From the NCBI RefSeq assembly GCF_044704955.1, contig NC_091981.1:103664001-103728000 (forward strand): a DNA stretch of 64,000 bases, written 5' to 3'. The position numbers and the translations under genes are program-made. Within the stretch, counting starts at the first letter, position 1, and the number at the start of each line of letters is the position of its first letter. The stretch comes from Pristiophorus japonicus (lineage: Eukaryota). The notes below the pieces were generated by a model. It saw only the letters and a program-made list of their open reading frames with translations, was not told the origin of the DNA and did no database searches. Positions 54,440 through 64,000 of the stretch are shown piece by piece.

Positions 54440-54684
54440 CTAGCTGTTACTTTTCAGTTTCGTAAGAACTTTCTTTTCTTTGACTCGTCTGTTTTGAAAC
54501 CAAATAGTGACTTGTCTCTCAGAGAGGTTCGTTGATGCCGATATCCTCCTTCGTTTGTCTTTGGTAATGAATTTATTGGTAGCATATTCCCGCTCAAGTT
54601 CTTTCAACTGCACTTTGGTATAAGGCACTCGTTTCTTTCTCCCACGCCGAAAAGAGCTCGCATCCGAAGGGTGCGAAACGACGT
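54440..54684 (-). CDS. HOXA13: HoxA13 exon 2 ([81 protein letters not shown])
   Basis: A13-type homeodomain; acceptor cacag| at 54685/54684; 649+245=894 nt, 297 aa. Confidence 0.96.
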
Positions 54685-55094
54685 CTGTGAAGAGAAAAAC
54701 ATACCTTACCATCCATGGAATTTAGCACTTGTCACCAATTAAAAGTTTAAAAACGGGCACTGTCGCCGGAGTCAAGTTCAAGATCACACCAGGGAGATGT
54801 TATATCGAGTGTACTTTTTGAAATAAATTATATGGCAGAAAATATAATTTTGTACAATACGTTGGAATTGTAAAGTCATTATGAAAAATCATGCAAAATA
54901 ATATTTAGGCAGTACACTAAACATTAAAGTAAATGATAATATATTCCTTATATTAGGGAATTACGAATATCATCTCTTAATTATAATCTATTTTATATAT
55001 TATCCACTGACCCGTGCATCAGAATGCTTTGTTCCCTTCATTGAACTCGCTTCTGGAGATAATTGAAAGCGCGCTGTCTTTTATCTATACTTAC

Positions 55095-55743
55095 CTGGCA
55101 GACTCGATTTCCAGAGGTGGGCAGCTTGGGGCTGCTCTTTTGAACAGCAGACTTGACCGTTCCATCCATTGGTAATTGCCCAGGGCTGGTAGCTCTCCAT
55201 GGGTAATAATGTTTCGTGTCTCGGTTCTCCCGGAGCGCTGATGGTGGGAACCACAGGTACATCCAAATAGCTGGGCATCGGCTGGTATGGCCCCGCGTAA
55301 CCTTGGTAGAAAGCGAACTCCTTGGCTCTGGAGGTGAATTCCTCGCCAGCGGACGTGTCCATATATTTGTCGGCAGGATAGCCAGACAAGGTGGAGGGCT
55401 GAGCACAGGACTTAATGCTGCTATGATGACTCATTCGGCAGGGATAGTAACTGCTCCCAAAGTATCCATAAGGAAGGGAAGCACTGGACGAAGTTTGAGC
55501 AGCAGGACAAGGACTGCACTGTTTGACAGGTTCAGCAATGCCAGAGGCTGGCATTTCACTCGACGAGTAGGCAGAGCTGGGGGCTAGGGATGCTGGATGG
55601 GCCATCAAATTCCTGCATTGATTTGCTGTGAAGTTCCCTCCTGAAAATCCATCCATGTTTTTATTAATTTCATCCAAACTATTGTCGTAGACGAACATCA
55701 CCGTGTCGATCCAGCGGGGATGAAGTATCACTGACGCTGTCAT
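55095..55743 (-). CDS. HOXA13: HoxA13 exon 1 ([21 protein letters not shown]...WKSSLP)
   Basis: A13 N-terminus and motifs [13 protein letters not shown] and [11 protein letters not shown]; ATG at 55743; donor G|GTAAGT at 55095/55094; no poly-Ala tracts. Confidence 0.96.
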
Positions 55744-55819
55744 ATCACGTCCAACATTGAGACTAGTGGCCGTTTTAAAAGTCCCCAAGACTGAAAAGAG
55801 ATACTGAATCTCTCAGACT

Positions 55820-58800: not shown

Positions 58801-61800
58801 GGGTTAGACACGGCTAAAGGCCAAGGTCAAGTTGAAAGTTGCTGTCTAGCCAATGTGAGTGCTGTCATTCACGCGTTGACGACCCTGTCTGAATTCTTAT
58901 AAAGGCAAGCCGTGAGAATTGACTTTTTCATTGGCGTTTTGTTTGTTTTCTTTTGTTTTCCACTCACAACCCTCCAAATGAAAAAAAGATTCCACTGACC
59001 ATACCGTCTTCACTTCCAGGCTGTTTCTGCATGGTTGGCAAAAGGATGTGAAATGGATGCAGTCGCTTTAAGATACATTGCAAATTGTATAGCATTGCAT
59101 CCGGTTTAAATGCAGTGTTTACAAAACCTCTAGTTTTGAACTGACTGTTTGCACTAGAGGCACGTCAATATTATTTGAAAAGGTAGGGACATTCTGTAGA
59201 AGATAAGGAACTGTCTTAATGAATAATACGTCAAAGTATTAAGGGTTGTACTGTGATGTCAGGTGTGATCTCCAAGACATGGTTTCAAACTATGTACAGA
59301 TCAGTACATCACCAATGGGAAGCTTAGATTGTGGCAACGTGCAAAAAACTGCATGGCTAAGAAGTAACTATACGCCGCTATTCCGGATATGCTCACGAAT
59401 AGTTATAAAGCCACATTTAGAACTATAATACAAAATATATAATTTTATAATTATTGTCCGCTATTTCGTTCAATAAGATCAGTATATGTGCTTTCAAACG
59501 TGTTACAGAACATCCATGCTAAACAGCCTGACGTCCTCATGTGCTTATGTTATCAGCCTGGATGTTTTTGTTCTATCGGGCTGAAATAGCGAATAAATAC
59601 TATATAGGTGCGCATTATGTGTGCCTGAAATCAAAACGATCGCTGGGGTAAAACTGCAAACAAGTTGAGCGAGAACATACCCGGTAGTACATATTGGTGC
59701 ATAGTTTGATATGGCCTAAAACATGTCCAAGTGTTGTTCTCCAATAAAATAAAATGTGTATTTTAATTCGTTTTATTGTACCAACATAGGGTTAAAGTGT
59801 ACAAGCTTTCGAAGATCACAGTGATCTTGATTTGCCATTTTCATCTAATTAAATATTTACGTGATCCAGGAAGCTTGTGTATTTTAATCCCCAAATTCTT
59901 CATTCTGAATAAAGATCTCCATGTTGGTCCAGTCAAATGTTTCCGAATATTTTATCAGTCGTGATTCCTCGGCGCAATACGGCTTTAAAACACGTATTTT
60001 TCAAACATAAATATGCCATCAAATAATATGGAAAGGATATTTTAACCGCATAGCTGGTAAAATTGGATTTCCCCCCCATTTTAAGCCATTGTCCAAGAGT
60101 ACCACAGAATTAAACTATGTTTGTGTTCATTTTATTTGCGGATGTTATAAAATAGATTGTGCAGCGTGTACAATCCAATCTCCATGTCAAAGAACTAAGC
60201 TAGCATGAGTGCATTTGTTATTTTCACATTTGGAACATTTCTGGAACCCCTTTGTGGCAATTTTAATGTCTTCAAAGTTGCGATTTAGTCTCTTTTTATG
60301 ACTGCTAGCTTAATATGCTTTAAAGGGAAATGGTCTTAACATTCTCCAGGAACTGCGTGTAAACCCATACATTTTACATTTTTATTATTTGTTCCTTTCA
60401 TTTGTCGATGAATATTTACTAATAATATATAACGATTTAATAATTAAGTTAAATAGATAATTTAATAGGTGTCGTTTTGATTTCAGGTCATATAAGTCAC
60501 ATCACTCATATTTCATTCACTGTGGCTACCAGCAACTCAAATTTCGAGCACTACAGGTTAAATCACGCAAAGCAATGTCTTGGACAAAACAAACAAAGAA
60601 ACTTCAAATAATCTATTACTTATGGTAGAATTATTTCTAGACGTTAGCCAAATTAATCACAATAAGGTATTATTGCAAGATTAATTTTCCTAAAACAGTT
60701 CTATTACAGTCTGTTCACCATATGCGTCTTACGAATCGTATTTGGAATATTTGTGCAGTTGTTAGATTAACACCAGCACCTCTACAAACCAACATTTCCT
60801 CTCAATCATTCCATGCTGCTTTCCTGAAACATTTCGAAATACTTTCCTGGAGCCCGACTGAGATCGATCAAAATGATTAATCAATATCGCTGTCCATGAA
60901 TTGCTTAATTTACAATATCATAACATACATATCAATAAATATATCTACACTGCAGATAGTATGTGGTTCTTCTCCTTTTATCTCTTAATTATAACAGATC
61001 TCGAGTACATTCAATCATCATTGTGAATGCTGACTCATGACCCGTACCATTGACCAACTGCCTAAGACAGACTCTGTAGATATATTATATGTCCTTGGAG
61101 AACAAGTTGTTACTTATGAAAACTGGGTTTGGCATAGTTTGCCATATCTAGATATCATGCATGTTTGTATAACTTTAATTATGAAGCCGTTTCAGAATAC
61201 AATAATATACAAATATTTTGCATATGTATTTGTGTTGCTGCCATTGATCAATGCCATACATCCACAGACAATGGGTTAAAAGAGTAACAGACTTCCTTTT
61301 TCATATTTACTAATGTCAGTCCATCATTCGATATAAAATGTTTTTTACTTTTTATTATCAAATACAGTTTAAGTAAGTGATATCATTGAATTATGAGTGC
61401 ATATCTGACTAGGCTCCTCACACTGGTGAGGGCACATTACGCGTAATTTCTTTTTTAGCTATGCTAAATACAATTGCATGAATATTTACATAAAAAGTTA
61501 TTCAAGTGTGTCCCAACAATTGTTCATGAAACTGTTGCAATATACAAAGCGCTTTGAGACGAACGGTGGTCGTGAAAGGCGCTATATAAATCCAAGTCTT
61601 TCTTTCTTCTTATTATCAAAAGATAATGAGACCATTAGTGAGAAGATACATTTTGTACAAGGTTAAAAAAAATCACAATAACTTTTTAACAAATGTATTC
61701 TAACATATTCTAACAAAATAAAATAAAACAGAAATATGCTATAATAACTTAAAGCCGTGCATATTTTCGATTCTATTTAAAATTTGCCTCTAATTTGAAT

Positions 61801-61963
61801 TGTTTAGAATCAGTCCATAGCATTACAGATAACGGTGTTTTGCTTCAAAAGAATAATTATATAATGCTTGCTTTAAACCAAACTACCGCGTTTTTGATGC
61901 CATTTGTAAATATTTATCAATAATATTTACATAAAAAGATAATTTAATTGTAAAGATCCGGTT

Positions 61964-62053
61964 TCAGCACTGCACCCCACAACTAAATTGTTTGTTCCTG
62001 TTTGCTGATGACCAATGCGCTTTCTGATGCTGATCTTCAAACCAGATTTTTAC
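61964..62053 (-). pseudogene. HOXA14: Degenerate HoxA14, exon 3 (VKIWFEDQHQKAHWSSANRNKQFSCGVQC*)
   Basis: Acceptor ttttctcttaatag| then GTA AAA ATC TGG TTT; cf. Hox14 VKIWFQNQRQK; phase-0 intron inside the homeodomain. Confidence 0.85.
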
Positions 62054-62158
62054 CTATTAAGAGAAAATGTTATCGCAGTGGACTCCCATGAAAGAAAAAC
62101 TCATTGCATATAGGAGCCAGCCTAGACTATTTCTCTTTTGGAATCGCCTCGTCTTTAC

Positions 62159-62346
62159 CTGCTGTTCTGACATCCCCAGTTTTGCAACAGTTATTTTCGT
62201 TGTTGTCATTTCAGGCGTCAGAAAGCAGGTTTCCTGGAAAGCGATGTGGCGTTGTGCAGTCTGGGGTTTGCTATGATGGATTCTTTTCTTCCTCTGTCTG
62301 TACTGAGCTCGTGGGTGGGCAGACCAGAGTGAATGAACATTCGGAG
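62159..62346 (-). pseudogene. HOXA14: Degenerate HoxA14, exon 2 (PNVHSLWSAHPRAQYRQRKKRIHHSKPQTAQRHIAFQETCFLTPEMTTTKITVAKLGMSEQQ)
   Basis: RQRKKRI, AF...FLTPE and KLG match the Hox14 homeodomain. Phase-1 acceptor tttacag| at 62347/62346, donor CAG|GTAAAG at 62159/62158, 105-bp intron before VKIWF. Confidence 0.85.
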
Positions 62347-64000
62347 CTGTAAACGAGTAAATACTCCATTATTCGAATCAATTATTTCAATTGTATTTAT
62401 TACTATGTACGACTATATTAATATCTGAATAAAACGCGCATCGCTTTAACTAAATGCATATAAAGTCCCATAGTGATAGTTTATGAATGATAAAACTCCA
62501 AAGGCGTTATATATGTACAATGAATAACATTTTCGAGTAGCCATATAAATGTGAAGATGACAGCTTTGAGGTAATTTGAACCTATGATCTAAAATCATGA
62601 AAATTCGGTAAACTGCGAACTAAAAATCTATATGAAGTGTTACATTTATATAAGACAAGTATCTCTTCAAGTCTACACTTTTAATAAACGCACGCAAGAA
62701 GATGCAAAGATTATACGAAGTTATGTATGCATTCCTTTATAAACGTCAAAATGCCAAACGCCCATAGTTTGTAGGTATAAAATATTACTAGATTTAAAGA
62801 CGTATGAATCAACGCAGACTAGAAAACAAGAAAAACGAGATTGTTGCAAATTTGTGATATAATTCGTGCCCACACTATATGAAATCAACCTTTCATGCAT
62901 TTAACAAGTACAATGTCAAAGCTAAACACTAAAGTTATTTTAATAGTTTGCAATTATGAGACGTGAATAGACACATATCATTTATTGTACTCCTTTAAGG
63001 ACACATCGTTTACATTGACAATATTTTATATTACACTCTAACTCCATTCATGTACTAGCTACGTGCCAACTAATAAGTGATATATTTTATGTTGTCGATG
63101 ACTATGTTTTACAAAGATTGTTTTCTATCGGTGTTTCTCACAGGCTATAATGATAAGCTAGACGTAAGTGTTACAAATCAACGTACCTTGGTGCTACTTA
63201 CTGTTTATTGCTTTGAATTCTCATCCTTATTTTTAATTCCTGGTTATTGTCATACATATAAGTGAAAACAAATAATTTGCTAAAAGGTATAGGAAATACA
63301 GGTGTATATATTTCCTGAACATTTTTATATTTTATTACTATGAATATATTTTAATTAAAGTGTACTCTCCACCATAATACATCATTAATCCTTGGAGAAA
63401 CGTCATATTGTATATATAGAATGAATGGTCGTTTTTAATATTTAAGATGCATTTCTGCACGCAACAGCAAAATGAATTTATAAACGAATATTAATCCTTT
63501 AAAATCGATTCACCGGTGCTTGTAGGATTTACATTATAACACTGAATATTTAAACAAGCTATCCCCTCTGTGACTGGCTTCGGCTGTCTGTATAAACATA
63601 TCGAAACAAACATCTGCACATCTTCGTTCACAACTGCCTCTGAAAGTCTTCAATGACGTTTATAAGTTTCGGCGATAAAGGATCAGCGATTTATTTTCTC
63701 TTTCTCCAATGTGTAAGAAAAATGTTTCTTGAACAGTAACAAACATTTCGCCACCTTCCCAGTGAACTATTTAAAAATTATGTCATCGTAAAATGATAAT
63801 CTGTTAATGTTGTTTTGGGCACTTGAGTGGAGGATTGTATCAACATAAAGTTTTACTATCGCTTTTAGATTGAAACGTTTCTTTTTGTCAATTTATGAAG
63901 CCCAACTGCAACACATTATGAACATTCTACCACACACGATCTTAATCGTGAATTAGGGTTTCCGTTGCTTCACGCAGGCAGAGTGAGACTGCAATATTCA

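What the first reader, a model, noticed from the sequence alone, without database searches (positions are those of the whole stretch)
61964..62346. Degenerate HoxA14 keeps open frames and all splice sites despite a wrecked homeodomain
Seen: exon 2 (188 nt) and exon 3 (90 nt to stop) have no premature stop or frameshift through helix 3. The phase-1 acceptor, donor and second acceptor are canonical, and the one indel in exon 2 is an in-frame 2-codon insertion in helix 2. Yet key residues are altered (Y8H, L16R, E17H, Q50E, N51D, R53H). Established: Hox14 genes have an intron splitting the homeodomain before VKIWF, and shark HoxA14 is regarded as a pseudogene. Inference: either chance survival or a still-spliced transcript, possibly encoding a non-DNA-binding peptide. 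I could not identify exon 1 in 62347-64000.
Basis: partly seen in the sequence, partly recalled or inferred. Interest (0 to 1): 0.75.

Follow-up and report, generated by a model that had tools for sequence, protein, structure and literature searches.

The report
Dead HoxA14 gene in a shark
This is the broken three-exon remnant of the body-patterning gene HoxA14 at the end of a shark's HoxA cluster; its first exon, just beyond the window, carries two stop codons and a likely frameshift, so it is most likely an ordinary gene fossil of a kind already known from cartilaginous fishes.

Summary
The remnant is real. Exon 2, the 105-nt intron, exon 3 and all six named substitutions are at the stated places. 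The title's claim fails for the gene as a whole. Exon 1 lies 400-786 bases beyond the window end and matches coelacanth HoxA14 (E=1.5e-9). It keeps its ATG but has two in-frame TGA stops, a likely frameshift and a weak donor; the ATG gives only 26 residues. Exon 3 probably lost 8 nt at the end of helix 3, so its '90 nt to stop' is a shifted frame. A tree groups the remnant with HoxA14 (99/96), on a very long branch. HoxD14 in the same genome is intact. Under neutral decay a stop-free exon 2/3 has probability 0.05-0.27; jointly with three intact splice dinucleotides 0.01-0.06, picked after the fact. That leaves room for a spliced non-coding RNA as in bowfin hoxd14, untested here. Such pseudogenes are published for cartilaginous fishes, and this scan noted them before in several other genomes.

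The parts
62347..64000 (-). In-window part of intron 1 (2053 nt in all; AG acceptor kept at 62348-62347). It runs on past the window end to exon 1, which lies OUTSIDE the window at L002:400-786 (minus strand; G000:C5:103728400-103728786; extended coordinates 64400-64786, 387 nt). Exon 1 keeps its ATG at 64786, has a likely frameshift near 64713, in-frame TGA at 64622-64620 and 64583-64581 (the latter at a Cys invariant in the 11 Hox14 proteins aligned) and a weak GT donor (4 of 9 consensus positions; HoxD14 has 6 of 9). A 34-bp element shared with the HoxD14 upstream region lies further out at L002:1383-1416.
   Evidence: tblastn with coelacanth HoxA14 E=1.5e-9, lungfish E=3e-6 and 5e-6, HoxD14 P0001 E=0.35; frameshift-aware alignment; coordinates and donors; whole-genome search finds exon 1 with 2 TGA, E=1.1e-4; invariant C67; upstream element E=5e-6, 0 of 200 shuffles
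62159..62346 (-). Exon 2, 188 nt, linker plus homeodomain residues 1-44; no stop; net +2 codons in helix 2
62054..62158 (-). Intron 2, 105 nt, GT..AG, splitting the homeodomain between residues 44 and 45 as in HoxD14 of this genome (165 nt there); donor 7 of 9
62018..62053 (-). Exon 3, in-register part (residues 45-56), WFQNQR decayed to WFEDQH
61927..62017 (-).
54446..55812 (-). Intact neighbouring Hox13 gene (HoxA13), about 6 kb downstream, same strand; context only
   Evidence: paralogue name from recalled homeodomain motifs

Best explanation
This is the three-exon remnant of HoxA14 in its ancestral place between Evx1 and HoxA13; stops in exon 1 leave no ATG-initiated frame from that exon into the homeodomain, and it is most likely a dead unitary pseudogene decaying without selection for a protein. 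Shown: structure, orthology, lesions, and an intact HoxD14 in the same genome. Inferred: HoxD14 made the A copy dispensable, and slow sequence change in sharks keeps the fossil readable. The open exon 2 and the surviving GT/AG pairs would be what is left after about a quarter of a substitution per site.
For: Two TGA stops and a likely frameshift in exon 1; 26-residue product from the kept ATG. Probable 8-nt deletion in exon 3. 16 of 41 confidently ancestral homeodomain residues changed, including N51 and R53; best-fitting neutral distance 0.225-0.25. Terminal branch 1.34 against 0.04-0.27 for intact shark and lobe-finned Hox14 rows. Two stops in exon 1 match the neutral expectation of 1.7-2.7 at d 0.15-0.3; the chance that none of 4 lesions falls in the 224-nt open stretch of 683 nt is 0.20. 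Exons 2-3 are not significantly better kept than exon 1 (24 of 55 against 16 of 26 shared positions changed, p=0.16). No cartilaginous-fish protein scores like HoxA14 among the best 120 listed of 7963 candidates scored (3 lobe-finned proteins at 475-510 bits, next 182). A separate contig of run X1, possibly the same sample, carries the same exon letters.
Against: Survival is somewhat on the lucky side. No stop in exon 2 plus the start of exon 3 has probability 0.05-0.15 (HoxD14 codons as template) or 0.07-0.27 (template from the remnant's own codons) at d 0.15-0.3. Jointly with three intact splice dinucleotides it is 0.009-0.065, before counting indels. The amino-acid changes are slightly milder than neutral (p about 0.07 at d 0.25). 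The ATG, all four GT/AG pairs and a 34-bp upstream element shared with HoxD14 persist. The trend, though not significant, favours exons 2-3.
Confidence: 0.85

Rival explanations
1. Protein-dead but still transcribed and spliced as a non-coding RNA from the old promoter, as reported for bowfin hoxd14, with some selection on promoter or splice sites. Compatible with the lesions found.
For: Bowfin precedent (PMC8423624, passages). All four GT/AG pairs present and donor 2 at 7 of 9. Upstream element shared with HoxD14. CpG observed/expected 0.56-1.04 over the gene against 0.32 in the repeat-rich DNA further 5'. An unchecked earlier scan note (e1-9271825) reports a spliced RNA of the remnant in another shark; a lead only, not support.
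Against: Donor 1 is decayed (4 of 9), although a 7-of-9 cryptic donor lies 31 nt further on. Four intact dinucleotides have probability 0.11-0.32 under neutrality. High CpG ratios cover the whole 5' end of the cluster. Gar hoxd14 is a pseudogene without evidence of transcription.
Confidence: 0.2
2. Two-phase decay: HoxA14 stayed a translated but weakly constrained gene for a long time, fixing mild amino-acid changes while stops were still purged, and died later, possibly independently in this lineage.
For: Only 2 stops in about 200 codons, against about 4.5-5 expected at d 0.25 (derived; not significant). Changes mildly conservative. Several in-frame indels relative to coelacanth. PMC3509897 (passage) suggests independent Hox14 losses in cartilaginous fishes.
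Against: None of these departures is significant alone. In-frame indels in exon 1 may be ordinary divergence from lobe-finned fishes. A holocephalan also has a HoxA14 pseudogene (PMC3707753), which fits one old loss.
Confidence: 0.25
3. Exons 2-3 are used by a new coding transcript (a new first exon, or the ATG inside exon 2) that makes a non-DNA-binding peptide.
For: A 46-codon ORF starts at the Met in exon 2; 2 of 10 donor-like sites between 62347 and extended position 68000 have an open in-phase ATG.
Against: Such short ORFs and sites are expected by chance. Neither candidate exon lies in the region that matches Hox14 exon 1. Helix 1 core and helix 3 contact residues are altered, and exon 3 is probably frameshifted. 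No protein in 1.84 billion representatives resembles exon 2 except lungfish HoxA14 (1 hit).
Confidence: 0.03

Closest known systems
[quoted passage not shown]
   Same: Dead Hox14 paralogue at the 5' end of the HoxA cluster beside an intact HoxD14 in the same genome.
   Different: Different species; sequences of the published pseudogenes were not available here, so shared lesions could not be tested.
Intact HoxA14 of coelacanth and lungfishes (P0015, P0016, P0017; P0017 is named HoxA14 by its source, the other two carry automatic names) and caecilians (PMC11600591 passages)
   Same: Orthologue: exon 1, homeodomain and C-terminal tail all align; tree support 99/96.
   Different: Those are intact with WFQNQR; this one has stops, probable frameshifts and WFEDQH.
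Bowfin hoxd14 pseudogene (PMC8423624 passages)
   Same: Hox14 pseudogene with stops and a preserved split-homeodomain junction.
   Different: Bowfin's is the D paralogue, keeps WFQNQR, and is shown to be transcribed and spliced in fin bud, vent and tail bud; here transcription is untested and the motif is decayed.
Hoxa14 pseudogene exons in turtles and crocodilians (PMC11600591 passages)
   Same: Readable HoxA14 fossil in the ancestral position.
   Different: Separate loss in another lineage.

Membership tests
Vertebrate Hox paralogue group 14 | Three exons, second intron splitting the homeobox | tested here: met
   Exons 387, 188 and about 90-125 nt; intron 2 at the same position as in HoxD14; feature as stated in PMC3509897 and PMC3707753
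Vertebrate Hox paralogue group 14 | Position between Evx (opposite strand) and Hox13 | tested here: met
   Hox13 about 6 kb 3'; Evx homeobox on the opposite strand at G000:C5:104161404, about 433 kb 5'
Vertebrate Hox paralogue group 14 | WFQNQR motif in helix 3 | tested here: not met
   Reads WFEDQH; the diagnostic Q52 is kept and each change needs one base. It is a decayed descendant, not a working member.
HoxA14 orthologues | Groups with HoxA14 rather than HoxD14 | tested here: met
   99/96 with the three lobe-finned HoxA14; AU test rejects grouping with HoxD14, p=0.014; long branch, so treat with some caution
Functional homeodomain gene | Unbroken reading frame from ATG through the homeodomain | tested here: not met
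Functional homeodomain gene | Core and DNA-contact residues (Y8, L16, N51, R53; roles recalled) | tested here: not met
Unitary (unprocessed) pseudogene | Disabling mutations, introns kept, ancestral locus | tested here: met
Unitary (unprocessed) pseudogene | No intact orthologue elsewhere in the genome | tested here: met
   Only two places match Hox14 exon 1 on its own: this one and HoxD14 (150 of 210 candidates scored); the DNA has a single match
Unitary (unprocessed) pseudogene | Neutral evolution across related species (dN/dS near 1) | not testable with these tools
   No DNA of other sharks' remnants was available; single-sequence simulations are compatible with neutrality but lean mildly conservative
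Transcribed Hox14 pseudogene (bowfin hoxd14 type) | Spliced transcripts in posterior embryonic tissue | not testable with these tools
   See Tried and rejected

The most novel reading that the evidence does not exclude
The protein-dead HoxA14 locus is still transcribed from a promoter element shared with HoxD14 and spliced into a non-coding RNA that selection has kept across sharks for hundreds of millions of years, helping to regulate the 5' end of the HoxA cluster.
Probability: 0.08. Interest if true: 0.6.

Novelty: new member of a known kind. Interest (0 to 1): 0.17.

Why it matters
As it stands it is a well-preserved example of a known fossil. Its use is historical: all three exons and four datable lesions can be compared across sharks, rays and chimaeras to ask whether HoxA14 died once or several times. 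It would matter more only if a conserved spliced RNA were shown.

Tried and rejected
Expression: no RNA holder listed (4 DNA holders, all possibly the source sample, and 3 runs of unknown kind with the same species label). Contigs of those 3 runs did not cover the remnant, but they did not cover HoxD14 or HoxD13 either; one had a 235-nt piece of HoxA13 exon 1. Uninformative in both directions.

Pfam scan of exons 2 and 3 separately: 0 families for 2 of 2. Word-based homologue search with exon 2: no candidate. Rfam over 6 kb around the gene: 0 matches. HoxD14 exon 1 as a probe for exon 1: best E=0.2, too weak; HoxA14 orthologues were needed. Two weak genome hits of exon 2 (L010, L011; E near 10) are not homeoboxes.

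Dating: d of about 0.25 divided by the epaulette shark pedigree rate of 7e-10 per generation (PMC10587355) gives about 3.6e8 generations, an impossible age for any multi-year generation time, so no date is given. dN/dS could not be computed: no orthologous DNA. Assembly error as the cause of the lesions: unlikely, the X1 contig over the gene differs only by one base in an intron-1 homopolymer, but it may be the same sample.

Ravi 2009 (PMC2752591) and Kuraku 2008 (PMC2373320) are not held. Look-ups of earlier scan findings by sequence, by place and by lesion words returned nothing.

Full report
Setting. The window is the 5' half of a Hox cluster on the minus strand, with homeoboxes at about 54.5, 40.1, 26.2, 17.3 and 8.0 kb. 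I name them Hox13, 11, 10, 9 and 7 from recalled motifs; the lack of groups 12 and 8 marks a HoxA cluster (recalled). The genome is 5.9 Gb. Its HoxD14 exon 2 is 98% identical to a protein named from Pristiophorus japonicus, so the animal is probably a sawshark. An Evx homeobox lies on the opposite strand about 433 kb further 5'. 'Extended' coordinates below continue the window numbering past 64000 (L002 position = extended minus 64000).

Observation. Exon 2 (62346-62159, 188 nt), the 105-nt GT..AG intron and exon 3 from 62053 are as described, and exon 2 has no stop. The six named substitutions are present. At 41 homeodomain positions where all 3 HoxA14 proteins and at least 12 of 14 HoxD14-type proteins agree, 16 are changed; residues 30-36 around the insertion and 57-60 were left out.

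Orthology. The only hit for exon 2 among 1.84 billion representatives is lungfish HoxA14, E=1.9e-6. In a tree of 17 rows (9 of the 14 cartilaginous-fish HoxD14-type proteins, sturgeon HoxD14, 3 HoxA14, 3 cyclostome proteins and the remnant with X at breaks) it joins HoxA14 at 99/96 on a branch of 1.34. An AU test rejects placing it with HoxD14, p=0.014. The branch is long, so position and exon-1 similarity carry part of the argument.

Exon 1. I fetched 60 kb beyond the window. Coelacanth and lungfish HoxA14 find exon 1 within extended coordinates 64727-64395 (E=1.5e-9, 3e-6, 5e-6), and a whole-genome search finds it with two TGA inside. The ATG at 64786 is kept and its first codons align to the lungfish start. 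The alignment then needs a frameshift near 64713, which rests on a short match, and meets TGA at 64622-64620 and 64583-64581. From the ATG the product is 26 residues. No ATG in exon 1 is in frame with exon 2 after the second stop, so the conclusion does not depend on the frameshift. The donor keeps GT but matches 4 of 9 positions of the recalled consensus, against 6, 7 and 8 for the other three Hox14 donors examined.

Exon 3. An 11-residue tail from each of the 3 HoxA14 proteins fits best at offset -8 of 34 offsets tried; the 3 HoxD14 tails do not pick that offset. For the coelacanth tail, flanking DNA matched as well in 126 and 22 of 5000 draws and shuffles in 80 and 13 of 5000, by two scores. 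An 8-nt deletion removing about residues 57-59 is therefore probable, not certain.

Is the survival more than chance? The number of changed residues fits a neutral distance near 0.25, plausibly 0.15-0.4. At 0.15-0.3 exon 1 should hold 1.7-2.7 stops, and it holds 2. A stop-free exon 2 plus start of exon 3 has probability 0.05-0.15 or 0.07-0.27 by template; three intact splice dinucleotides 0.19-0.41; both together 0.009-0.065. The joint figure is low, but the features were chosen after being seen, the fourth splice site is decayed around its GT, and four lesions miss the 224-nt open stretch with probability 0.20. The substitutions are a little milder than neutral (p about 0.07). Exons 2-3 are not significantly better kept than exon 1 (p=0.16). 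I read this as neutral decay with a mild, unproven hint of a relaxed-selection phase or of constraint on an RNA.

Mechanism. Shown: the locus cannot give a homeodomain protein from its own first exon, and HoxD14 is intact in three exons between Evx2 and HoxD13. Inferred: the A copy became dispensable and has decayed slowly; sharks are reported to have low mutation rates (PMC10587355). A 34-bp element about 600 bp upstream of the ATG, 85% identical to one upstream of HoxD14, and high CpG ratios suggest the promoter region may still be open, but expression could not be tested.

Literature. Passages only were seen for PMC3707753 (elephant shark has HoxD14 plus HoxA14 and HoxB14 pseudogenes), PMC3509897, PMC8423624 (bowfin hoxd14 pseudogene transcribed and spliced), PMC11600591, PMC7875771, PMC1845163 and PMC10587355. 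Powers and Amemiya 2004, Ravi 2009 and Kuraku 2008 were seen only as references. Six searches on Hox14 or this animal listed no paper on this species' remnant. Most subscription papers and all supplements were outside what I read, and shark genome supplements may well show it. Earlier notes of this scan describe the same kind of remnant in other genomes; they are unchecked and were read after I had found exon 1 and its lesions.

Verdict. A real, unusually readable HoxA14 pseudogene; a new member of a known kind; interest 0.17.

Noticed in passing
L009:208-736, 1487-1668, 1834-1923 (G000:C3): Intact three-exon HoxD14 between Evx2 and HoxD13. Public Hox14 proteins mostly carry misleading automatic names such as 'Hox-D12-like' or 'php-3-like'.
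   Followed up: yes
L002:1383-1416 (extended 65383-65416): 34-bp element shared between the upstream regions of the HoxA14 remnant and HoxD14 at a similar distance from the ATG; a candidate ancient promoter element.
   Followed up: partly
G000:C5:103732000-104161404: Evx1 lies about 433 kb from HoxA14, whereas Evx2 is about 6 kb from HoxD14. The first 56 kb of that gap that I read is rich in retrotransposon-like ORFs, and the CpG ratio falls sharply near extended 68000-69000.
   Followed up: partly
G000:C21:33.00-33.17 Mb and G000:C37:40.08-40.43 Mb: Two further runs of homeoboxes, so four Hox-like clusters in this genome, the C37 one widely spaced; which is B and which is C was not tested.
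   Followed up: no
window 61545-61610: A roughly 60-bp high-copy repeat sits about 350 bases 3' of exon 3; thousands of contigs match it.
   Followed up: no
window 55957, 56309, 58963 and L002:163: Run X1's contigs differ from the assembly at three single bases and one homopolymer base, none in the remnant's exons; probably alleles.
   Followed up: no
L002:369 (extended 64369): A 7-of-9 donor-like site 31 nt downstream of the decayed exon-1 donor could serve as a replacement if the locus is transcribed.
   Followed up: no
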